A stretch of 63,082 bases of DNA, counting the filler, from Candidatus Woesearchaeota archaeon (lineage in GTDB: Archaea > Nanobdellota > Nanobdellia > Woesearchaeales > B72-G16): NCBI GenBank assembly GCA_003650545.1. It is 17 parts of 17 records of this genome, joined end to end, with 100 filler letters (N's around TTAATTAATTAA, not from the genome) between each part and the next. Parts side by side here need not be neighbours in the genome. Positions count along the whole stretch, not along the records: positions 26,996 to 30,639 come from QMQO01000095.1; 16 more parts are not named here. One strand, 5' to 3'. Of the stretch, positions 3,785 to 59,731 are shown in pieces. Positions within the stretch are counted from its first letter, which is position 1, and the number at the start of each line of letters is the position of its first letter. Below the pieces are notes generated by a model. It ran no database searches. It was not told the origin of the DNA and saw nothing but the letters and a program-made list of their open reading frames with translations. The position numbers and the translations under genes are program-made.

Positions 3785-3884
3785 NNNNNNNNNNNNNNNN
3801 NNNNNNNNNNNNNNNNNNNNNNNNNNNNTTAATTAATTAANNNNNNNNNNNNNNNNNNNNNNNNNNNNNNNNNNNNNNNNNNNN
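3785..3884. other. Artificial contig linker (N44-TTAATTAATTAA-N44), first of 16. The others are at 7660-7759, 11530-11629, 15398-15497, 19242-19341, 23075-23174, 26896-26995, 30640-30739, 34356-34455, 38042-38141, 41727-41826, 45354-45453, 48964-49063, 52547-52646, 56098-56197 and 59632-59731
   Basis: Identical 100-nt spacer with stop codons in all six frames; composition and gene content change abruptly across each one; contig lengths decrease monotonically. Confidence 0.99.
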
Positions 3885-7613: not shown

Positions 7614-7759
7614 CTACATTAACTCCTTTTTATTTTTTCCTATAAACAACCCTATAAGCNNNNNNNNNNNNNNNNNNNNNNNNNNNNNNNNNNNNNNNNN
7701 NNNTTAATTAATTAANNNNNNNNNNNNNNNNNNNNNNNNNNNNNNNNNNNNNNNNNNNN

Positions 7760-18766: not shown

Positions 18767-19241
18767 TTACTGTCCAGCCGATCTAACTATATATCTATAG
18801 TCTGTGCTTCCTACTCCAACATACACAGATACTTTAAACCTAGCCACAACATCTCTCTCAAATGCAGCTCCTGAGTCCTTGCCCTGAGATTCAGTAGTAG
18901 GCTTCTGAACCCACTGAACTCTAACTTGTTTCTTAGGAGCTCCTATAAACCACTCAGGACTTGTAATATAAGGAGAAACAACAAGCTTAAATTGTCCTTT
19001 ATATGGATTAACTGCATTATTAGTTGTATCATACATCTGAGCACTATTAAGAAGCATAACAGCCTGCATCTCAAGTTCAGGTGGAATTATCAAATGAGTA
19101 GGAAGAATATTAATATACTCTCCTTTAGAATCAACCATCTTTCTTAAAAGAGCAATAGCACTACCAATAGCTGTAGTTCCAAATGCACTATCAGCTCCAG
19201 AAAGCAGATTATCATTTGTTTGAGCATCTATTGTAGAGTGA
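18767..19241 (-). CDS. Phage major capsid protein C-terminus (Mu gpT-like, HK97 fold), 5'-truncated
   Basis: Frame open from the contig edge: HSTIDAQTNDNLL...LRKMVDSKGEYINILPTHLIIPPELE...NPYKG...VVSPYIT..WFIG...DYRYIVRS. Confidence 0.8.
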
Positions 19242-20691: not shown

Positions 20692-21126
20692 TCATCCTAC
20701 ATTTCCAACTAGTTCTCGTGGATCAAGTACCTTGAGCCCCTTTATTCTGCGATAAGCCTTATCAACTGATATTATTGTTTTGTCATAAAGTAGAGCTGAA
20801 GCGGCATGAAGAGAATCAAAGTATGATAAACCATACCTATTTCTAAGTCTAGATGCCTCTATGAGGATGCTTGATGTTAATGGTACTTCGTCAAGATTCT
20901 TCATCAATCTAAACGCCTCTATATCCTTACGTATAACTTCTTCGTTATAACCTTTTGACCTAAGTATAAGCTCATACTCCATGTAGGCGGAAGTGGGTAC
21001 AGCTACATTCACTAATTCGCCATTTACTATTCTAGTGAAGATCATTGAAGCTATCCTATGTAGTTTGTCTATTATGTTTACATAAGCTATAAGCATATCA
21101 AACTCTATTATGGGCATGGATCTCAT
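20692..21126 (-). CDS. vapC: PIN-domain toxin (VapC)
   Basis: PIN pattern with YGLSYFDSLHAASA...IISVDKAY; overlaps the antitoxin gene. Confidence 0.88.
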   Translation of the reverse strand: MRSMPIIEFDMLIAYVNIIDKLHRIASMIFTRIVNGELVNVAVPTSAYMEYELILRSKGYNEEVIRKDIEAFRLMKNLDEVPLTSSILIEASRLRNRYGLSYFDSLHAASALLYDKTIISVDKAYRRIKGLKVLDPRELVGNVG

Positions 21127-26844: not shown

Positions 26845-26996
26845 CTACGCCCTCCCCCCTATTAAATTAGTTGAAAATTTATTACTTAAATATTCNNNNN
26901 NNNNNNNNNNNNNNNNNNNNNNNNNNNNNNNNNNNNNNNTTAATTAATTAANNNNNNNNNNNNNNNNNNNNNNNNNNNNNNNNNNNNNNNNNNNNG

Positions 26997-27245
26997 TTCT
27001 ACCATGAGATAGTCTTAGAGACAACAAGGGAAGGAGAAGAAATAGACCTAGCAACACTCTACAGGGCCATAAAGCTTTGGAAACAAAACCCTGTCATAGG
27101 CGGAAAATCAAGCATAGGCTTCGGTAAAATCAAGATAGAATACGAGTTCCCGAAGAAGGTGAGCGATAAACCATACCTAGAGTTCATAGAAAAGAATAGA
27201 GACAGGATAAAGGAGGTACTCGACAAGCTAAGGGATAGGCTATGA
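26997..27245 (+). CDS. csf2: Type IV CRISPR Cas7-like Csf2, C-terminal part; missed by the ORF track
   Basis: FYHEIVL...AIKLWKQNPVIGGKSSIGFGKIKIEY...YLEFIEKNRDRIKEVL; RAMP Gly-rich loop; ATGA overlap with the next gene. Confidence 0.8.
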   Translation, partial: FYHEIVLETTREGEEIDLATLYRAIKLWKQNPVIGGKSSIGFGKIKIEYEFPKKVSDKPYLEFIEKNRDRIKEVLDKLRDRL

Positions 27246-27907
27246 GCTATGTTCCATTGAAGATAACGTTTAGAATGGAGACACCAGTAGCCCTAGGGTT
27301 CCCGTGGATAAGCTTCGATGGTCTAGTACTCCACGTTCTCCTACGTGAAAGCCTAGGCGAGAAATACTATTATTTACCGACAAAGACGCCCATCGAATAC
27401 ATTATAAAGAAACTAGATGTACCAATGATACATGACCCTCCCCTCAAAAAGTGGAGGGACTTGTATGTGGCAAGCGTGAGTATCATAAATGGCCAACCAT
27501 TTGTTTTCCACTACTTCAAGAGAGGAGACTTCAGGTTTCCTTCAGGTAAGATTAGGCGTGGATCTGGTTTCTTCAAGGACTTCTACTTGAAGATAACCTA
27601 TGTCCCTGTAAGAGAAGTAGTCTTCTACGCTACAGGTGATCCAAGAGAGCTTGCAAGAATACTGGGCAAGGTGAAGGCCCTTGGAAAGGATAGGAACATT
27701 GGATTCGGCTTCATAAAAGAAGCGAGAATAGAGGAAGTAGACTACGAGGCAGGCCTAGTATGGAACAATAAGTGCATGAGGCCCATACCAGTAGAATACC
27801 TCAAAGAATACGAGGACGCAGCATACCTCGCTTATAGGCCACCGTACTGGGATAAACGCAACATAAAGCTATGCGGGGTGCCCTTCACCAAATGCGTGTT
27901 GAAGTAA
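27242..27907 (+). CDS. csf3: Type IV CRISPR Cas5-like Csf3
   Basis: LKITFRMETPV..ISFDGL, VFYATGD, G-loop LGKDRNIGFG, MRPIP and C-terminal YRPPYW. Confidence 0.82.
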   Translation: MSYVPLKITFRMETPVALGFPWISFDGLVLHVLLRESLGEKYYYLPTKTPIEYIIKKLDVPMIHDPPLKKWRDLYVASVSIINGQPFVFHYFKRGDFRFPSGKIRRGSGFFKDFYLKITYVPVREVVFYATGDPRELARILGKVKALGKDRNIGFGFIKEARIEEVDYEAGLVWNNKCMRPIPVEYLKEYEDAAYLAYRPPYWDKRNIKLCGVPFTKCVLK

Positions 27908-28623
27908 AAGTAGACAGGGAATGGCTTGAAAAATGGAGGAACTACTTCACAGAATACTATGATATAGGAGGCGTTGAGGAAAAAGTAAGAGAAGCAATAT
28001 CGTTTACAAAGCTCTATATAAGAGACTCTATAGTGGCCGTCAGCGGTGGCAAGGACTCGATGACAATGTTGCACATAGTGTACAATAACATTTCACATGA
28101 TATAACGGTTTTCCATTGGGATCACGGGCCATGGCTTATGCCACGCCACATAGAAAACGAGATACTGGAAAACATAAGAAAGGTGGCTCCTAAAGCCAGG
28201 CTTGTTGTTAAAAGATATGCTTATGGTGCAAACCCTAGGTCGAGAATAGACTATGTCAAATGGTATAAGGCTTTCTTTAGGACGCTTGAAGAAATAGGGG
28301 CAAGGCATCACTTGCTTGGCATAAGGGCCGAGGAGTCGGGCAACAGGAGGGCCAGGGGGAGCATAGTTAGGAAAAGGAAATGGATAGAAGTATACCCTGT
28401 CTACTACTTCACATGGCGGGATATATGGGCCTATATCTTTAAACACAATGTACCAGTACCGAGAACCTACTTCAAGTACGCTAAAATGCTTGGATGGAGC
28501 AGGGCTAGGCTAACAACATTCCACGACCAGGAATTCATGAAGTACGGTTCACCAAACATAGACTCAATAATACTCTGGAGAAACAAGAGTATTATGGTAG
28601 ATAGCAGCCGTAAAGTGCTATAA
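27871..28623 (+). CDS. cysH: PAPS-reductase-family (CysH-like) protein associated with type IV-B CRISPR
   Basis: PP-loop VSGGKDS, GIRAEESGNR, YPVYYFTWRDIWAYI; overlaps csf3 (alternative start 27892). Confidence 0.88.
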   Translation: MRGALHQMRVEVKVDREWLEKWRNYFTEYYDIGGVEEKVREAISFTKLYIRDSIVAVSGGKDSMTMLHIVYNNISHDITVFHWDHGPWLMPRHIENEILENIRKVAPKARLVVKRYAYGANPRSRIDYVKWYKAFFRTLEEIGARHHLLGIRAEESGNRRARGSIVRKRKWIEVYPVYYFTWRDIWAYIFKHNVPVPRTYFKYAKMLGWSRARLTTFHDQEFMKYGSPNIDSIILWRNKSIMVDSSRKVL

Positions 28624-28954
28624 CCTTCCAGATGATGATATCCTTTTCTGATACTCTGTTTGTTTCTTGTCCTCTAACAGGTTTTCTTAATGTGATGATG
28701 TAGATGACGTCGGTCTCATGAAACTCATAGAGTTTGTTGCTCGGTTCAATTCTTACTCCAATCCTTTCAAGGTACTTGTTTAGTAGGTCTATTGTTGCCT
28801 GGTGGCGTATATAGCACTTGACCTCGGCATCATATTGTATTTTATCCTCAGCGATTTCTGACAAAAACGTCTGCAAACTGATCGGCTTTGCGTAAATGGT
28901 CACGTCACGTTTAAAGATGTTAAGTGGCAAAGCATTAAGTAAGATGATCCTCAT
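28592..28954 (-). CDS. DUF1874 (STIV B116) family protein, AcrIII-1/Crn2-like ring nuclease
   Basis: LLNALPLN...CYIRHQATIDLLN...DVIYIITLRKPVRGQE follows the recalled DUF1874 pattern LxNAxxxNM...S/xIGHxxT...D...RxxEG; 120 aa; GGTGA RBS. Confidence 0.75.
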   Translation of the reverse strand: MRIILLNALPLNIFKRDVTIYAKPISLQTFLSEIAEDKIQYDAEVKCYIRHQATIDLLNKYLERIGVRIEPSNKLYEFHETDVIYIITLRKPVRGQETNRVSEKDIIIWKVIALYGCYLP

Positions 28955-28966
28955 TGGCTTTCACCG

Positions 28967-29731
28967 TTATAACGTGTCATATAGTACGAGGTCTTCGCTA
29001 ATAATTACACGTCTAACATAGTCTCTTTGAATTGATGGAAATGCTACAACATTAGAGTTCCCAACTCTTCTAATCTTCACATACTTTATATCAAACTTCT
29101 CGATGTTACTACAATCAATGATAGCGTACTCGTAGCCGTCGTAGATATAGACGAACGTTGGTATGCTAGTCTTGTAGTATTTTTCAACATAGCACTGTAA
29201 TACCGCTTCATCAAGGTCTCTTTTGTCTTCGCTTACTTTTTCTCTACACTCACTGAACTCTTTAGCAACATAGTAGTCTCCAACATCAGGGCTACTAGCA
29301 AGCAATAGTTTTCCAACACGATAGTAATGGATAATGAATCTCGCTAACTCTTTAACACCATATTCTGGATTACCAAGCTCATATAATGGTGTAAAGTCAA
29401 TAACATATGCATAAAGTTTCGCTCTTAACAGTATCACAGCAATTTCTTCGTCTTTGCTTATCGCTGATTTCACGACTTCAGTAAATTCAATTGGCTCTCC
29501 AGCGAAGAGGTCTATAACAAGTTGTTTAATATACTCGTTGTTTGGTTCAACATACTGTATTTTATAATATTTACTGTATTCATCAACATCAGCTTTAAAC
29601 TTGTTTATTGCCTTGTTCAAGTCAGTATAAATCTCGTACTCTCTTCCTGTCTCATCCTCCCTTATGAGAACATACAAATCAAAAAGATATCTTGTTTCAA
29701 GATTTTTATATGTTTTGACTTGGATTTGCAT
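28967..29731 (-). CDS. Hypothetical protein co-oriented with, and 12 nt upstream of, the DUF1874 gene
   Basis: 254-aa ORF; TTTATAA box at 29783-29789 on the minus strand. Confidence 0.7.
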   Translation of the reverse strand: MQIQVKTYKNLETRYLFDLYVLIREDETGREYEIYTDLNKAINKFKADVDEYSKYYKIQYVEPNNEYIKQLVIDLFAGEPIEFTEVVKSAISKDEEIAVILLRAKLYAYVIDFTPLYELGNPEYGVKELARFIIHYYRVGKLLLASSPDVGDYYVAKEFSECREKVSEDKRDLDEAVLQCYVEKYYKTSIPTFVYIYDGYEYAIIDCSNIEKFDIKYVKIRRVGNSNVVAFPSIQRDYVRRVIISEDLVLYDTL

Positions 29732-30137
29732 GGGTTTTCCACCCGAGCGGATATTCTGTATATACTGTATATCCAGAGGGAGTTATAAACCTGTCGCCTC
29801 TTCACTATTAAAACTCATTTCACCGTGAAGACTGATTCATGTAAAGAGAACCTCCTTCTCTACTGGAACCCACTCTAGTGGAGCGGAAGTTCAAACTTAA
29901 GTTTGACAAAAAACACTCTTCACCACAACATAACCGTCTCCATCGGAAAGTCAAACACAAGTTTAACTTTCTCCATCAACCACCTTCTTTTCCTCTGGAG
30001 CAACTGGAGCACACCAGAGTGGGACACATCTTATAAAATAAAATAAGAAAGGTAATATAACAGGAAACAAGAGAAAAAGAGCCCGCCAACCCCCCAGTTA
30101 AAGACAACAAAAAATAAAAACGAATGGGAAAAAAGGA

Positions 30138-30428
30138 TTAGGCTTGGTAGACTTTAAAGAAGCCTAGTTTCTGAAGCAACTCTTCAACATCGTAGATACT
30201 ATATTCTTGAAATACTCCAGCAGTTATTACTTTTGTTTCTACACCACCGCTATCCTCGTGTGGTATTGAAAACTGTCTTACGAATATTGAGTGTAGATGA
30301 TAGTCATAGTAGCCTTCGCTAGTTCTTGCCTCTACTATGACTACGAGGTCTTTTTTAGCAATCTCCGCCTTCTCAATCCACTCTTTTAATTCTTTTTCGA
30401 GATTTCTTAATTCCATTTCTTGGGACAT
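30138..30428 (-). CDS. Small acidic hypothetical protein with its own BRE/TATA promoter
   Basis: 96-aa ORF; AGAAAAGTATATAAG at 30466-30480 on the minus strand; T-rich tract downstream. Confidence 0.65.
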   Translation of the reverse strand: MSQEMELRNLEKELKEWIEKAEIAKKDLVVIVEARTSEGYYDYHLHSIFVRQFSIPHEDSGGVETKVITAGVFQEYSIYDVEELLQKLGFFKVYQA

Positions 30429-30739
30429 GTTTCCCGACCCCAGTCTATACTATAGTCTGAACCCCCTTATATACTTTTCTATATCACCCCTCCAATACTT
30501 TTTCAAATAGCCGATTGTAAATATCGTATGTAGTCAGATACTTTGAAATAGTCGAATGACTCTGCTAGTTTGTAATCACCCTTCAAATACCATTCGACTA
30601 CCAGAAAGATGTTGCAGATTTTTGGTTCTGCGTTGCAGANNNNNNNNNNNNNNNNNNNNNNNNNNNNNNNNNNNNNNNNNNNNTTAATTAATTAANNNNN
30701 NNNNNNNNNNNNNNNNNNNNNNNNNNNNNNNNNNNNNNN

Positions 30740-38141: not shown

Positions 38142-38589
38142 TAAGGCTCTTAATTATCTCATTAATCTTTATTCTTCTCTCCTCTAACCCAGATTCAATC
38201 TTACTCTTTTCCAGTTCCTCCATATATGTTTCAATCTTGTTCTTAGGAATAAGGATTCTGCCGCACTCCCTGCATGTACACCTCAGTAAATCATATATAA
38301 CACTAACAAACTTGATATGTATGACTGGTCTTGCTAAGGAGATATAACCAAAATGACCAATACACTCCTTAAGCTTTGAACCACATGTTTTGCACTTAAG
38401 GCCAGGATCTATCACTCCAAGCCTTGCATCCATTAATCCGCCATCAACTGGATAACCCTCTTTGTCATAAAGCTCTGGAGTTACTATTTTGGCAGAAGCC
38501 ATTTTCTTGATTGTATTTGGGCTTAAAATACTAAAGGCAATACTTTCAACCTTTTTAAAAACCGGAATTTCATTGTCTTCCATTTTCAA
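38142..38589 (-). CDS. rpo1N: Archaeal RNA polymerase subunit A' (Rpo1N), N-terminal part
   Basis: GGLMDARLG, CKTCG...CIGHFG..LARPVIH, CRECG. Confidence 0.97.
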
Positions 38590-40388
38590 TATTTGTTTTT
38601 TAAGACCAGCCTTGGATGCACTGTTAATGACTTTAATTCATCAAGCAGTAGCTTGAAGGCATAGCTTACCTCAATAAAATTTATTTCAACATTATCGCCG
38701 CATATTGGGCAGTATGATTTATTCTTGAATTTATCATGTATTGCTATCATCCCACACTCTTCACAGACAGGAACTACTGTTCTGTCTGCATCAAACCTTT
38801 CCTTTAACAATAAGGATGCTCCATGTGCAACAAATGTATCTTTTTCCATCTCTCCTAAACGCAGGCCACCCTCTTTTGCCCTGCCCTCTGTTGGCTGTCT
38901 TGTCAAAAGCTGTATTGGGCCTCTTGCTCTGGCATGTATCTTATTAGCAACCATATGCTTTAATTTCATATAATAAATATTTCCAATATAGATCTTTGCC
39001 TCAAACTCTTCTCCTGTAATTCCATTATACATTGTTTCAGTACCATTCTCTCTGAAGCCAAGCGATAAGAGTTCTTTTCTTAATTTTTCTTCTGGCTCAA
39101 CATCAAACAGTGTTCCATCTATATACCTTGATGATAAAGCACCTACCTTGCCTGCAATTAATTCTATAAGATGTGAGATAGTCATTCTTGATGGAACCCC
39201 GTGAGGTGAAAATATAAGGTCTGGCGTAATTCCAGATGCTGTGAAAGGCATGTCTGCCTGGTCGATTATTAATCCAACAACGCCTTTCTGGCCATGCCTT
39301 GATGTGAACTTATCACCAATCTCTGGGATTCTCTGATCCCTTATCTTTACCTGAACAAGCCTATTACCTTCACTGCTTTCGGTTATTAATACAAAGTCAA
39401 TAATTCCCTCTTCTCCATGTTTTAGTGCTACCGAACTTTCACGTCTGTTGCTTGGTGCAAAGTTATACTGATCCATAGAACTTAAAAACCTTGGTGGGCT
39501 TGTCTTGCCGATAATAACATCCCCTTCTGAAACCTTTGCTTCTTGGAAGATAATTCCATCTTTTTCCAATAATCTATAATCCCTCTCACTTTTATATCCT
39601 TTTACATCCTTATCAGGTATTGATATTTCATCAGTAAGTCCGCCAGAATATCTTAGTTCCTCAGCTATCGATGGCCTATAATATGTTGATCTTCCAAAAC
39701 CAAGGTCAATTGAAGCCTTATTTAAAACCACTGCATCATCAACATTATATCCTTTATAACTCATAATAGCTACTACAATATTTTGTCCTGAAGGGTGCTT
39801 GTTATAGTTAGAAACATCATGCATGACTGACTGTACAAGGGGTATCTGTGGATAATGCAGCATATTAACATCCATATCAATTCTTATTGGGAAGTTTATT
39901 GCATACATCCCAAGTGCCTGTTTCTGATTTTTAGAGCCAATGCTTATTCTTGCACCAGGGCTGAAATTTGCATAAGGTACTAATGATGTGCATAAACCAA
40001 CCATTGCCAGTGGAGCAAGCTCTAGATGGGTATGTTCTTTTGTTAACTCTTCTCTGGAAAAAGCAACAAAGGCACTTTCTTCTTCAGCTGCATCAAGATA
40101 TTCAATAACTCCTTGTTTTACAAGATCAGAAAATAAAATCTCATTTTTTTGTAATTTTTTAATATGCTCTTCTGTTAAAAGTGATTGCCCATCTTTGACA
40201 ACAATTAATGGCCTTCTCAGTCTACCTTTATCATCATTTATGTGTATATTGCCAACTATTTTATCATAATATATATTTATATTATTTGAAATAACCCCTT
40301 TTCTTCTTCCTTCCCTAACTTTATCACTAAATTCACCAGGGTTTTCTACTGTTCCAATAAATTTTCCATTTAGATATACTTCGCTCAT
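38586..40388 (-). CDS. rpo2C: Archaeal RNA polymerase subunit B' (Rpo2C)
   Basis: GDKFTSRHGQKG, KLKHMVANKIHARARGP, RQPTEGRAKEGGLRLGEME. Confidence 0.97.
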   Translation of the reverse strand: MSEVYLNGKFIGTVENPGEFSDKVREGRRKGVISNNINIYYDKIVGNIHINDDKGRLRRPLIVVKDGQSLLTEEHIKKLQKNEILFSDLVKQGVIEYLDAAEEESAFVAFSREELTKEHTHLELAPLAMVGLCTSLVPYANFSPGARISIGSKNQKQALGMYAINFPIRIDMDVNMLHYPQIPLVQSVMHDVSNYNKHPSGQNIVVAIMSYKGYNVDDAVVLNKASIDLGFGRSTYYRPSIAEELRYSGGLTDEISIPDKDVKGYKSERDYRLLEKDGIIFQEAKVSEGDVIIGKTSPPRFLSSMDQYNFAPSNRRESSVALKHGEEGIIDFVLITESSEGNRLVQVKIRDQRIPEIGDKFTSRHGQKGVVGLIIDQADMPFTASGITPDLIFSPHGVPSRMTISHLIELIAGKVGALSSRYIDGTLFDVEPEEKLRKELLSLGFRENGTETMYNGITGEEFEAKIYIGNIYYMKLKHMVANKIHARARGPIQLLTRQPTEGRAKEGGLRLGEMEKDTFVAHGASLLLKERFDADRTVVPVCEECGMIAIHDKFKNKSYCPICGDNVEINFIEVSYAFKLLLDELKSLTVHPRLVLKNKY

Positions 40389-40390
40389 TT

Positions 40391-41726
40391 TTACTTTAGT
40401 AGCTTTAGGCCAAGACCTTTTAGTGGTTTTATTGTTTCTTCTTCTTTAACATTCTGTGATATATTTGCAATTAATGCCAAGTTTTTCTTTAGGCCGATGT
40501 TTGTTCCTTCTGGAGTTTCAACAGGGCATAACCTTCCAAGGTGAGTGCTGTGAAGCTCTCTTGCCTCAAAATTTTCCTGGGTTGCTGACAATGGGCTCAC
40601 AACCCTTTGTAAGTGAGACATCATATCAAGAAAATTTAGGCGTTGTATCCTCTGGCTTACACCTTTTCTGCCTCCAACCCAGTTTCCTGTTGCCATTGAG
40701 GAATAAATTCTTGATGTCAGCAACTTCTCTCTTATAATCACTTTTATAGATGGGAATTTACCTCTTTTTACGATTCTTTGGAAATTATATAAGATATCAT
40801 TTATTAGGATATTTAGATTAACTCTTATCAGGTCTGCCAATAAGTCACCACTCATCTTGACCTTTTTGTTCATGTAATGGTCCTTGTCATCAACTTTTAT
40901 TTCCCCTCTAGAAACACGTATGAACTTTTTTATTATCTTACATAGATTATGGGCTTTTTGTAGTCTGTCTTTTTTATCAACACCTATATGGGGCATAAGA
41001 TATTTATCCATAATTTCCTTTGTTCTCTCGATCCTTATATCCTTTGATTGGGTTATGCCTGATTTTTTTGCTATGTAATCAATTGCATCTTCCTGTGTTT
41101 TTATATCAACACATTCATATAGATTTACAAGCATTTCATCATAATTATCTTCTGAGACAGCCCCCATTATTTCTTCATCCTTCATAAGACCAAGTGCCTT
41201 AATTACAGTAACAATAGGTATTCTCTTGATTCTTGTAAAACTTAAATAGATTATTCCATCTTTCATCCTCTCAATTGTGTGAGGTATCTTGAAAGAGCCT
41301 CTTTCTGAAAATAGTTTTCCAACATATTCACTAGGTCCTGTTTTTGTTTTTTCAACCAAGAGCCTGTTTGAAGCAAGATCCTCTATGTTAACAAGCACTT
41401 TCTCGCTTCCATTTATTATGAAATAACCGCCTGGATCATCAGGGTCTTCTCCTTTATTTATTAACCCCTCTCTATCTAGCTTGTTAAGATGACAGTATTT
41501 TGACTTGAGCATTATTGGAAGATTGCCAATCTGTGCCTTTATTGATTCTCTTTTTTGCCCGTTAATATGTGCGGATACCTCAACAAACATTGGAGCAGCA
41601 TAGGTTATCTTCCTTAGTCTTGCTTCTGATGGGAATATATCCCTTTTTGAGCCATCTGCTTCAGTTATCTCTGGCTTGGTAATCCATATTTTGTCAAACC
41701 TTATTTTATATGTATCAACATTAGGA
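40391..41726 (-). CDS. rpo2N: Archaeal RNA polymerase subunit B'' (Rpo2N), 5'-truncated
   Basis: DPGGYFIINGSE, DDKDHY, ARELHSTHLGRLCPVETPEGTNIGL. Confidence 0.97.
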
Positions 41727-45966: not shown

Positions 45967-46836
45967 TTAGGTATAAGTTTCTTTGGTTTTCTTCACTACC
46001 TCTTGAAGTTGTTTGGTTTCTCTATCTATGGCTTCTATAGCTGTATCCACTATCTCGAGCAACGCTGGTATGTATTTTGCCATTGCTGTATTGCTGAGCT
46101 CTTTGGGTCCTAGATCTGGTTTTTCTGGATATCTCGTTAACGTTGATATTCTACAGGTTTCAAATAATAGCTGAATCGGTAAAAGCGCTGCAAACCCGTA
46201 GAACGCTTCGATATGTGATACAAGCATTGGGATTGTGTCGATGAAGAGCTTGATAACCTTATCTATCTGCTCGGCATCTAATGGAGTTATCATTCTAGCG
46301 TATTCCTTTAGCATCTCGATGCTCTGAACAAAGTAGGGATCTCTAAGAATTTCCTCGAGATCAGGCTTGTTGTTGTGGATATGCTTCAGCTCTTCTAGAA
46401 ATTCCTTAGCAGTTGAGATGAGTCTTTGAAGCATGTCCTCGTCGTTCAAGATCTCTCTAACATCTGTGAAGTGCAACTCTTCAATGTCCTTAACGGTTTG
46501 CTCGAACCTATTTGCAAGATCAATAAGCTTATTTACAAGACCTTCCTTAGCACCTTTGCTCGTCAGAAGTTTAGCAACATGTCTCAATCTCCGTGTTTGT
46601 TCTGACATCTCCTTTCGTACTTCATGATAGATCGGTTCGTGTCTAAGTCTCTTCAGTTCTTTGCAGTAGGTCTCATCTTTACCGACTGCTAGGAAGCTCT
46701 TCAAAGCCTTCTCTACAGCTTGAGATAACCAAAATAAGCTGTGAGCATGCAGTCCATGATTATATAGAAGCTTAGCAGCACACAAATCATTCTTTGCCAA
46801 CACTAGGAAATAGATAGAGCACCAAGGCAAGCGCAT
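45967..46836 (-). CDS. HEPN domain protein with a long helical insertion
   Basis: AKNDLCAAKLL...SQAVEKALKS...RH and C-terminal TRYP. Confidence 0.8.
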   Translation of the reverse strand: MRLPWCSIYFLVLAKNDLCAAKLLYNHGLHAHSLFWLSQAVEKALKSFLAVGKDETYCKELKRLRHEPIYHEVRKEMSEQTRRLRHVAKLLTSKGAKEGLVNKLIDLANRFEQTVKDIEELHFTDVREILNDEDMLQRLISTAKEFLEELKHIHNNKPDLEEILRDPYFVQSIEMLKEYARMITPLDAEQIDKVIKLFIDTIPMLVSHIEAFYGFAALLPIQLLFETCRISTLTRYPEKPDLGPKELSNTAMAKYIPALLEIVDTAIEAIDRETKQLQEVVKKTKETYT

Positions 46837-59631: not shown

Positions 59632-59731
59632 NNNNNNNNNNNNNNNNNNNNNNNNNNNNNNNNNNNNNNNNNNNNTTAATTAATTAANNNNNNNNNNNNN
59701 NNNNNNNNNNNNNNNNNNNNNNNNNNNNNNN

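What the first reader, a model, noticed from the sequence alone, without database searches (positions are those of the whole stretch)
28592..28954. AcrIII-1-like ring nuclease converging on and overlapping the type IV-B cysH gene
Seen: a DUF1874-like ORF whose 3' end overlaps cysH by 32 nt; the catalytic His is in an IRH context instead of the usual IGH. Known: DUF1874/AcrIII-1 degrades cyclic tetra-adenylate and blocks type III CRISPR. Inference: a type IV-B module physically joined to an anti-CRISPR supports the idea that IV-B/CysH is itself a counter-defence device, for example sequestering host crRNA or acting on adenylate signals. Together they may form an undescribed anti-CRISPR island.
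Basis: partly seen in the sequence, partly recalled or inferred. Interest (0 to 1): 0.78.

Follow-up and report, generated by a model that had tools for sequence, protein, structure and literature searches.

The report
Ring nuclease gene abutting type IV-B CRISPR
A small gene of the AcrIII-1 (DUF1874) ring-nuclease family really does sit tail to tail against a type IV-B CRISPR module on a short piece of an archaeal mobile element, but the join is a recent recombination seam, not a conserved partnership.

Summary
Window 28592-28954 (-) encodes a 120-aa protein with the DUF1874/AcrIII-1 fold. Its profile finds only DUF1874 structures in the PDB, and the 17 best Foldseek ranks are DUF1874 entries. 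The catalytic His is present and a homodimer is predicted. It overlaps by 32 nt the 3' end of a Cys-less CysH-like gene that follows csf2'-csf3, so the neighbour is a true type IV-B module.

'IRH' is not a quirk. It marks a large subfamily (137 of 158 aligned relatives) in which the Arg before the His replaces the Arg that the solved 'IGH' members carry about 20 residues later (136:16:1 exclusivity).

- The window is 17 unrelated short contigs; the locus is one 3.6-kb contig.
- A 92%-identical IV-B module in another genome loses homology 4 nt from the DUF1874 stop and continues into other genes.
- Both junction forms occur in public runs.
- 0 of 16 other csf3 loci carry DUF1874, and 1 of 79 other DUF1874 loci carries csf3-cysH.
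- The closest DUF1874 relatives lie in other contexts.

Most likely these are two independent cargo modules shuffled together. A functional counter-defence island is not excluded (about 0.15), because the juxtaposition arose twice.

The parts
26997..27245 (+). 3' end of csf2 (type IV Cas7), last 82 codons; cut by the contig end
   Evidence: Open-ended ORF; PADLOC typeIV_Cas7 Csf2_0_IV 1.6e-15; colinear with the full csf2 of L081
27242..27907 (+). csf3 (type IV Cas5), 221 aa
   Evidence: PADLOC Csf3_0_IV 7.8e-45; NCBIfam TIGR03116 3e-19, below its cut-off; 96% aa identity to L081 csf3
27871..28623 (+). CysH-like (CasCysH) PP-loop protein, 250 aa, no cysteine
   Evidence: Pfam PAPS_reduct 1.6e-14; SGGKDS at residue 58 and 0 Cys; 90% aa identity to L081 cysH
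28588..28623 (+). New 3' tail of cysH (SIMVDSSRKVL + stop), read from the antisense of the DUF1874 3' end; the recombination junction lies between 28587 and 28588
   Evidence: Homology to L081 ends at 28587; L081 cysH ends ...RNKHTTR*; loose ends at 28587 in runs X1 and X4, and a bridging contig in X2
28592..28954 (-). DUF1874/AcrIII-1-family ring nuclease, 'YIRH' subfamily, 120 aa
28967..29731 (-). orf254, unknown function, same strand and 12 nt upstream of the DUF1874 gene (probable operon)
   Evidence: no family reaches significance; 49% aa homolog in L002 next to an MCM helicase gene
29732..29805 (-). Probable promoter of orf254-DUF1874: TTTATAA box followed by two ATATACAG repeats, conserved in L002
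   Evidence: reading it as a promoter is inference
30138..30428 (-). orf96, unknown function
   Evidence: no significant family

Best explanation
Window 26996-30639 is a 3.6-kb fragment of an archaeal mobile element (plasmid or virus of a thermophile). Two separate cargo modules meet on it tail to tail.

Module 1 is the 3' part of a type IV-B operon (csf1-cas11-csf2-csf3-cysH in the close relative). Its products form an RNA-binding Csf complex plus a Cys-less PP-loop CysH-like protein. Its function is still unknown.

Module 2 is orf254 followed by a DUF1874 gene. The DUF1874 protein most likely works as AcrIII-1 does. As a homodimer it encloses cyclic tetra-adenylate at the dimer interface, and His51 acts as general acid to cut the ring into A2>P. 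This removes the second messenger of host type III CRISPR systems.

The protein belongs to a large, biochemically untested subfamily. In it the ligand-contacting Arg of the solved enzymes (R66 in SIRV1 gp29) is missing, and an Arg sits directly before the catalytic His.

The 32-nt overlap with cysH arose when recombination joined the DUF1874 cassette, almost at its stop codon, into the last codons of cysH. The overlap has no demonstrated function.

Shown: gene identities, fold, conserved residues, the junction and its polymorphism.
Inferred: cA4 cleavage, anti-type III role, independence of the two modules.
For: Fold and family:
- A profile of 10 relatives hits only DUF1874 chains in the PDB: 2j85 at 6.3e-6, 2j6b, 2x4i, 6scf.
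- The aligned His is Ala in 6scf, the H47A variant.
- AlphaFold2 pLDDT is 87.9. Foldseek ranks 1-17 are all DUF1874 entries, including gp29+cA4 and Csx1-Crn2, TM 0.56-0.68; the next hit has E 0.74.
- The best BFVD match is a Stygiolobus rod-shaped virus protein, TM 0.78, E 1.1e-8.

Conserved residues in 158 aligned relatives: H51 154, T54 153, N7 120, R94 124, G95 135, E97 118 plus 26 D.

Lid: residues 91-100 have low pLDDT (62), as expected for the mobile lid that is residues 82-94 in gp29.

Dimer: score 0.74 against a best control of 0.00. The mark was reached by 20 of 30 proteins solved as pairs and 1 of 23 solved as single chains. Runs agree in at least 92% of contacts and partner pLDDT is at least 87. 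Similar dimers are solved, so this may be recall.

Arg relocation: R50 without R73 in 136 sequences, G50 with R73 in 16, both in 1, K or S at 50 in 5, of 158.

Modularity:
- L081 is 91.6% identical over 26996-28587 and unrelated beyond.
- L081 has a complete IV-B module and no DUF1874, and neither does its genome.
- Runs X1 and X4 hold contigs that leave the window sequence at 28587. An X2 contig bridges 28469-28677 without a difference.
- DUF1874 relatives sit among mobile-element genes (MCM helicase, ParA, archaeal integrase, TFIIB-like, ParB) and not next to cas10 or CARF genes.
Against: - No activity was measured. The single sequence is below Pfam's gathering score.
- The R66 equivalent is absent, and no member of the IRH subfamily appeared among the solved structures. 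Substrate or rate could therefore differ.
- SIRV2 gp37, a close homolog of gp29, does not act as an anti-CRISPR in native infection (abstract and section 10 of 10.1101/2023.01.10.523387). AcrIII-1 genes rarely carry the early anti-defence promoter (prevalence 0.13; PMC11065993 passages).
- Against independence of the modules: DUF1874 lies within 3 kb of csf3-cysH in a second, diverged contig (L078). On the DUF1874 tree the two cases fall in separate supported clades, so the juxtaposition arose twice. Meanwhile csf3 is rare (1 of 351 genomes of that class).
- No Cas10 was found in the bin. The bin is 85% complete and the contig's membership is doubtful (GC 40% against about 34%).
Confidence: 0.68

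Rival explanations
1. This is a functional counter-defence island. The IV-B Csf/CysH module (an RNA sponge or a modifier of guides or signals) and the ring nuclease are selected to travel together and jointly disarm host CRISPR systems.
For: - The two modules are adjacent here. They lie within 3 kb in L078, whose DUF1874 gene belongs to a different clade, so there were two independent juxtapositions.
- csf3 is rare in genomes (1 of 351) yet occurs in 2 of 80 DUF1874 loci.
- PAPS-reductase-like genes of any kind lie within 4 kb in 4 of 80 DUF1874 loci.
- A sponge role for IV-B has been proposed (PMC7937560 passages).
Against: - A 96%-identical csf3 module has no DUF1874 nearby or anywhere in its genome.
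- A 90%-identical copy of the L078 DUF1874 protein (L073) has no csf3 or cysH within 3.7 kb.
- 0 of 16 csf3 loci have DUF1874.
- Gene order, spacing and intervening genes differ between the two cases.
- The overlap is a scar at a polymorphic junction.
- Two events give no statistical signal (shuffles as low in 500 of 500).
- The function of IV-B is still unknown (PMC11656645 passages).
Confidence: 0.15
2. The protein has the DUF1874 fold, but its main role is not anti-CRISPR. It could bind and inhibit a host factor, as reported for SIRV2 gp37 and a lysine methyltransferase. It could also act on another nucleotide, given the altered Arg arrangement.
For: - gp37 has no Acr activity in native infection and inhibits SiL_1451 (abstract; section 10).
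- The anti-defence promoter is rare on acrIII-1 genes (0.13).
- The gene is the last one of an operon behind orf254, not a small stand-alone early gene.
- The R66 equivalent is lost.
- No Cas10 was found in the bin.
Against: - His51, T54, N7 and the lid R-G-x-E are strongly conserved across 158 relatives, which argues for retained catalysis on a gp29-like ligand.
- According to the same preprint, the residues that bind the methyltransferase are conserved only in a few rudiviruses.
Confidence: 0.14
3. The adjacency is an assembly chimera between two elements of one metagenome.
For: - The contig is short (3644 bp) and comes from a metagenome.
- The graph branches at 28587. Both continuations are present in run X1, and the X1 contig on the DUF1874 side starts 30 nt before the junction, one short of the 31 needed to count as bridging.
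Against: A 209-nt contig of run X2, from another study, spans 28469-28677 (119 nt left and 90 nt right of the junction) with 0 differences.
Confidence: 0.03

Closest known systems
AcrIII-1 / DUF1874 (PF08960): SIRV1 gp29 (PDB 2x4i, 6scf), STIV B116 (2j85), AFV3-109 (2j6b)
   Same: Same fold (Foldseek prob 1.00, TM 0.56-0.68). Similar size. Predicted homodimer. The catalytic His aligns. N8, N13 and T50 of gp29 correspond to N7, N12 and T54. There is a flexible lid loop with Arg. The gene is carried on a mobile element.
   Different: Only 14-20% identity, and below Pfam's cut-off as a single sequence. Gly before the His is replaced by Arg, and the R66 equivalent is Asn. A conserved 5-residue C-terminal tail lies in the predicted dimer interface. 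Activity is untested.
Crn2, the cellular DUF1874 ring nuclease, e.g. the Marinitoga Csx1-Crn2 fusion (PDB 8y6z, 8y7f, 8y7g)
   Same: Same fold (ranks 7, 9, 17).
   Different: Crn2 is fused or adjacent to type III effectors. Here, and in the neighbours of the 80 related loci that were examined, no cas10 or CARF gene was seen. The neighbours are mobile-element genes.
Type IV-B CRISPR-Cas (csf1-cas11-csf2-csf3 + cysH-like), e.g. Mycobacterium sp. JS623 (PMC7937560) and the Bathyarchaeia 'Fuxiviridae' virus locus (PMC10848311)
   Same: csf2-csf3-cysH order. The CysH-like protein has a PP-loop and no catalytic Cys (PMC8175902 passages). cas11 and csf1 are present in the 92%-identical relative. No array was seen. 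The module is on a mobile element.
   Different: Only the 3' part lies on this contig. cysH has an altered C-terminal tail created by the junction. A ring-nuclease gene is the convergent neighbour, which the papers read here do not mention.

Membership tests
DUF1874 / AcrIII-1 (PF08960) | Sequence match to the family model | tested here: met
   The single sequence is below the cut-off (15.5 against 26 bits). However, 10 of 10 relatives match PF08960 (best 2.7e-9), and the family profile hits only DUF1874 chains in the PDB (4 of 4 at E <= 1, best 6.3e-6). phrog_5063 2.4e-5.
DUF1874 / AcrIII-1 (PF08960) | DUF1874 fold | tested here: met
   Model pLDDT 87.9. Foldseek ranks 1-17 are all DUF1874 entries; the next hit has E 0.74. 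BFVD top hits are archaeal-virus and phage DUF1874 proteins.
DUF1874 / AcrIII-1 (PF08960) | Absolutely conserved catalytic His (H47 of gp29) | tested here: met
   H51 aligns with the His of 2j85, 2j6b and 2x4i, and with the Ala of the 6scf H47A variant. It is present in 154 of 158 relatives. Its role is taken from 10.1101/778746 (passages).
DUF1874 / AcrIII-1 (PF08960) | cA4-contacting side chains (N8, S11, N13, S49, T50, R66, Q81; lid R85) | tested here: inconclusive
   By the alignment: N8=N7, N13=N12 and T50=T54 are kept. S11=P10, S49=A53 and Q81=T88 are changed. R66=N73 is lost, with R50 as a possible substitute. Lid R94 is a probable equivalent of R85, but the loop was not aligned by HMMER.
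DUF1874 / AcrIII-1 (PF08960) | Homodimer enclosing the ligand | tested here: met
   Score 0.74 against a best control of 0.00. The mark was reached by 20 of 30 solved pairs and 1 of 23 single chains. Contact agreement at least 92%, pLDDT at least 87. This may reflect likeness to solved dimers. No ligand was modelled.
DUF1874 / AcrIII-1 (PF08960) | cA4 cleavage and inhibition of type III immunity | not testable with these tools
   Needs biochemistry and a type III challenge assay.
Type IV-B CRISPR-Cas | Core genes csf1, csf2, csf3 plus cas11 | tested here: met
   On the window: the csf2 C-terminus (1.6e-15) and csf3 (7.8e-45); the contig ends there. In L081 (91.6% nt identity): csf1 5e-17, cas11 9.1e-20, csf2 3.3e-67.
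Type IV-B CRISPR-Cas | Adjacent cysH-like gene lacking the catalytic Cys | tested here: met
   PAPS_reduct 1.6e-14. 0 Cys, SGGKDS at residue 58. cysH is adjacent in 13 of 16 other csf3 loci.
Type IV-B CRISPR-Cas | No CRISPR array, cas6, dinG or adaptation genes | tested here: inconclusive
   None was seen in the 3.6-kb contig or by TRF in the 12.8 kb of L081. The elements are incomplete.
Anti-defence (Acr) island | Cluster of several anti-defence genes, recurring together, under a shared early promoter or Aca regulator | tested here: not met
   Only one candidate Acr is present. IV-B has no shown anti-defence function. The linkage is absent from the closest relatives of either module. The promoter belongs to orf254 and also occurs in L002, where DUF1874 is not downstream.

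The most novel reading that the evidence does not exclude
Archaeal mobile elements repeatedly bring a cA4-degrading ring nuclease next to a type IV-B Csf/CysH module because the two cooperate in counter-defence. The Csf filament would soak up host guide RNAs, or the PP-loop CysH-like enzyme would act on adenylate-derived signals, while the ring nuclease removes cA4. In addition, the 'YIRH' enzymes would be a mechanistically distinct ring-nuclease variant in which the phosphate-binding Arg has moved next to the catalytic His, possibly changing rate or ligand preference.
Probability: 0.13. Interest if true: 0.8.

Novelty: new member of a known kind. Interest (0 to 1): 0.36.

Why it matters
The function of type IV-B CRISPR systems is an open question; it is called 'to be characterized' in PMC11656645 (passages). 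A conserved partnership with a known anti-CRISPR would have been a strong clue. The evidence here says the partnership is not conserved, so the locus gives only a weak hint: two independent juxtapositions.

Three points are useful and testable.
1. A large, uncharacterised DUF1874 subfamily (277 cluster representatives at E <= 0.001) has a relocated active-site Arg.
2. There is a natural polymorphism in which the same IV-B module occurs with and without the ring-nuclease cassette. This is a ready-made comparison for fitness or interference assays.
3. Windows made of concatenated bin contigs can suggest 'islands' that do not exist beyond a few kilobases.

Tried and rejected
- Single-sequence phmmer against the PDB gave only chance hits (Kemp eliminase designs, E 0.23).
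- PF08960 searched over the own genome missed the gene, whereas the A1 profile found it.
- A scan of viral contigs with the DUF1874 profile found no relative. tblastn of the DUF1874 and csf3 proteins against the phage collection found no match.
- No tRNA and no Rfam family (one chance hit, E 0.75) lie on the contig, so no att site or known RNA explains the junction.
- I looked for a mini-CRISPR array in 29700-30200. Only short imperfect repeats are there. TRF on L081 found nothing array-like.
- Cas10 (TIGR02577, TIGR02578) and csf2 (TIGR03115) were not found elsewhere in the bin. This is uninformative because the bin is 85% complete and the contig's membership is doubtful.
- The search of earlier findings returned nothing for this place.
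- No RNA holder was listed for the stretch.
- The published AcrIII-1 paper was not held under its PMC id, so I used passages of its preprint. A role for 'E88' that I recalled is not in that preprint (0 occurrences) and is not used.
- Depth figures are per contig and were not used to estimate the ratio of the two junction forms.
- I rejected the chimera explanation (bridging contig in X2). I also rejected a Crn2-type host role, because no type III genes lie near any of the relatives examined.
Full report
**What the window is.** The 63,082-base window is not one stretch of genome. It holds 16 linkers of the form N44-TTAATTAATTAA-N44, which separate 17 pieces of 3,784 down to 3,351 bases with G+C from 0.33 to 0.49. 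These are contigs C88-C104 of a metagenome bin with 133 contigs, 1.64 Mb, 85% completeness and 3.9% contamination. The finding lies on C95, which is window 26996-30639 (3,644 bp). Its G+C is 0.404, while the large contigs of the bin have about 0.34, so its membership in the bin is uncertain. Nothing outside 26996-30639 is context for the finding.

**Genes on the contig.**
- An open-ended frame at the left edge (26997-27245, +) is the last 82 residues of Csf2, the type IV Cas7 (PADLOC 1.6e-15).
- csf3, the type IV Cas5, follows at 27242-27907 (PADLOC Csf3_0_IV 7.8e-45).
- A CysH-like gene follows at 27871-28623 (Pfam PAPS_reduct 1.6e-14). It keeps the PP-loop SGGKDS and has no cysteine at all. 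This fits the published description of type IV-B CasCysH (PMC8175902, passages).
- Three genes converge on these from the minus strand: the 120-aa ORF of the finding (28954-28592), orf254 (29731-28967, 12 nt upstream of it) and orf96 (30428-30138).
- The stop codon of the 120-aa ORF is at 28592-28594 and cysH ends at 28623, so the 32-nt overlap is real.

**Is it DUF1874?** On its own the protein scores only 15.5 bits against PF08960, whose cut-off is 26, and it finds nothing real in the PDB.

It does have relatives: 10 proteins at E <= 0.01 among 13 candidates. All 10 match PF08960, best 2.7e-9. A profile of these 10 finds four distinct PDB sequences at E <= 1, and all four are DUF1874. They are STIV B116 (6.3e-6), AFV3-109, SIRV1 gp29, and the gp29 H47A complex with cA4. 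In that last alignment the query's His faces the Ala of the H47A variant, which identifies His51 as the catalytic residue described in the AcrIII-1 preprint (10.1101/778746, passages).

An AlphaFold2 model has mean pLDDT 87.9. Foldseek against the PDB gives 16 matches at E <= 0.001, and ranks 1-17 all belong to DUF1874 entries: 2j6b, 6scf, 2j85, 2x4i and the Csx1-Crn2 structures 8y7f, 8y7g and 8y6z. TM-scores are 0.56-0.68, and the next hit has E 0.74. Against predicted viral structures the best match is a Stygiolobus rod-shaped virus protein (TM 0.78, E 1.1e-8), followed by STIV B116 and a Thermoanaerobacterium phage protein.

The only low-confidence internal stretch is residues 91-100 (pLDDT 62). 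It corresponds to the mobile lid, residues 82-94 in gp29.

A homodimer is predicted with score 0.74 against a best control of 0.00. The mark was reached by 20 of 30 proteins solved as pairs and 1 of 23 solved as single chains. Contact agreement is at least 92% and pLDDT at least 87. Because DUF1874 dimers are solved, this may only reflect likeness to them.

**The 'IRH' motif.** An exhaustive profile search finds 277 cluster representatives at E <= 0.001, of which 131 are at <= 1e-10. I aligned 158 sequences: the 10 plus the listed best. Conservation at the positions of the window protein is as follows.

| Position | Residue | Count of 158 |
|---|---|---|
| 7 | N | 120 |
| 50 | R / G | 137 / 16 |
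| 51 | H | 154 |
| 54 | T | 153 |
| 94 | R | 124 |
| 95 | G | 135 |
| 97 | E (D) | 118 (26) |

So 'IRH' is the rule in this branch of the family. It also covaries with a second site. All 16 'IGH' sequences have Arg at the position of N73. This is the equivalent of gp29 R66, a cA4-contacting side chain. Among the 137 'IRH' sequences, 136 lack Arg there and 1 has both. The remaining 5 sequences have K or S before the His and no Arg at 73.

All solved structures are of the IGH + N-R type (alignments). I read this as a relocation of one active-site Arg. That is an inference: the two states may simply mark two clades, and I could not inspect side-chain geometry with the tools at hand.

**Is the join to type IV-B meaningful?** Five lines of evidence bear on this.

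1. *The nearest IV-B module.* It lies on a contig of a Desulfurococcales bin (L081; csf3 96% and cysH 90% aa identity). L081 carries the whole operon: csf1 (5e-17), cas11 (9.1e-20), csf2 (3.3e-67), csf3 and cysH. Nucleotide identity with the window is 91.6% over 1,592 nt, from the contig edge to 28587, and then stops. In the alignment 85 of the first 88 columns agree and the rest is unrelated. The break lies 4 nt from the DUF1874 stop codon. In L081 cysH ends ...RNKHTTR and is followed by unrelated ORFs. In the window it reads on through the antisense of the DUF1874 3' end and ends ...RNKSIMVDSSRKVL. The DUF1874 C-terminus (...ALYG-YLP) is shared with its three closest relatives, so the DUF1874 end is native and the cysH tail is the new part. 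The overlap is therefore a by-product of a recombination junction.

2. *Absence from the nearest relative.* Neither L081 nor its genome contains a DUF1874 relative. The same profile finds the window's gene at 2.8e-51.

3. *Public runs.* Contigs from public runs show both forms. A 209-nt contig of run X2 spans 28469-28677 without a difference. Contigs in X1 (two) and X4 (one) follow the window up to 28587 and then continue differently, beginning like L081. The junction is real and polymorphic in nature.

4. *Co-occurrence counts.*

| Set examined | Result |
|---|---|
| 80 metagenome loci with a DUF1874 relative (92 confirmed, best 80 kept) | csf3 + cysH in the window's own contig and L078 only |
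| Same 80 loci, flank available | 29 have >= 3 kb on one side; 54 have >= 1.2 kb |
| 16 csf3 loci (4 from genomes, 12 from viral contigs) | cysH adjacent in 13; DUF1874 in 0 |
| 351 species genomes of the class of L081's genome | csf3 in 1; DUF1874 profile in 9; both in 0 |

5. *The closest DUF1874 relatives.* L002 (68% identity, a whole 17.4-kb contig) and L003 (64%) have no csf3 or cysH. In L002 the gene lies among an MCM-type helicase, a ParA ATPase, a C2H2 zinc-finger protein and a homolog of orf254 that sits 2.8 kb away on the other strand. Other relatives neighbour an archaeal-type integrase, a TFIIB-like protein, ParB and many ORFans. No cas10 or CARF gene was seen among the neighbour clusters examined. 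This is the context of mobile elements, not of a cellular Crn2.

**What speaks for a link.** L078 is a G+C-rich contig whose csf3 and cysH are 57-58% identical to the window's and whose DUF1874 protein is about 37% identical. There the DUF1874 gene also converges on csf3-cysH, but 2.6 kb away with five ORFs between. On a tree of 79 DUF1874 proteins the two cases lie in separate supported clades: the window with L002 and L003 at SH-aLRT 98, and L078 with L073 at 95. L073 is 90% identical to L078's protein but has no csf3 or cysH within 3.7 kb downstream.

So the juxtaposition arose at least twice. Two events carry no statistical weight (label shuffles as low in 500 of 500). They do keep the 'island' idea alive, since csf3 is rare. 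In addition, stand-alone PAPS-reductase-like genes lie about 1 kb from DUF1874 in L066 and L074 (Pfam 7e-11 and 5.6e-13).

**Literature.**
- The function of type IV-B is unknown. Its Csf complex binds heterogeneous RNA, and an 'RNA sponge' role protecting plasmids from RNA-guided defence has been proposed (PMC7937560, passages; PMC11656645, passages).
- An archaeal virus family with a IV-B locus has been described (PMC10848311, passages).
- For AcrIII-1, the biochemistry comes from the preprint 10.1101/778746 (passages).
- The early anti-defence promoter is rare on acrIII-1 genes (0.13; PMC11065993, passages).
- Two full-text searches ('type IV-B' + cysH + CRISPR, 12 papers; 'AcrIII-1' + 'type IV', 15 papers) and the passages I read gave no report of a DUF1874-IV-B association. 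I did not read all listed papers or any supplements.

**Verdict.** The proposed anti-CRISPR island is not supported as a conserved unit. The overlap is a recombination seam between two shuffled cargo modules of an archaeal mobile element. I put the functional-island reading at about 0.15.

Noticed in passing
window 1-63082 (linkers at 3785-3884, 7660-7759... 59632-59731): The window is 17 bin contigs in descending length (3784 to 3351 bp) joined by N44-TTAATTAATTAA-N44. G+C ranges from 0.33 to 0.49, so adjacency across linkers is meaningless and the bin looks mixed.
   Followed up: yes
window 29812-29887; L002 9935-10010: A 76-nt non-coding stretch is 96% identical to L002 but inverted and at a different place relative to the orf254 homolog. 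Several run contigs end or branch at 29805-29887. No tRNA or Rfam match. It may be a recombination hot spot or a small mobile or regulatory element.
   Followed up: partly
window 29732-29805 (- strand); L002 11095-11182: The region upstream of orf254 is conserved with L002. It has a TTTATAA box followed by two ATATACAG repeats before the start codon, which looks like a promoter with an operator. The C-terminus of orf254 (about residues 219-232) weakly resembles an AbrB/antidote-type DNA-binding motif (NCBIfam E 0.081). The resemblance itself is my reading.
   Followed up: partly
L066 1630-2202; L074 1748-2308: Stand-alone PAPS-reductase-like genes (187-191 aa, about 25% identical to the IV-B CysH-like protein) lie about 1 kb downstream of DUF1874 genes on the same strand, without csf genes.
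   Followed up: partly
L048, L049, L062, L074, L078 (e.g. L078 810-1739): In this clade DUF1874 is followed by a conserved gene for an unknown protein of about 295-310 aa, immediately (L048, L049, L062, L074) or after one short ORF (L078). No Pfam match.
   Followed up: partly
L073 84-562 (-) and 1636-2047 (+): Two diverged DUF1874 copies lie on one 5.8-kb contig. Homology to L078 is confined to the gene itself, so the gene behaves as a cassette.
   Followed up: no
window 38142-41590 (contig C98): RNA polymerase subunit B is encoded as two genes (Rpb2 domains 1-3, then 4-7), and Rpb1 is cut by the contig end. From memory, split B subunits are not typical of Thermoproteota, whereas the nearest IV-B module is in a Desulfurococcales bin. 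This is another hint that C95 may not belong to the main organism of the bin.
   Followed up: no
window 18767-19138, 20692-21126, 45967-46836: Other short contigs of the bin carry a Mu-like/HK97-type capsid fragment, a PIN-domain gene and a HEPN-domain gene. They are unrelated to the finding.
   Followed up: no
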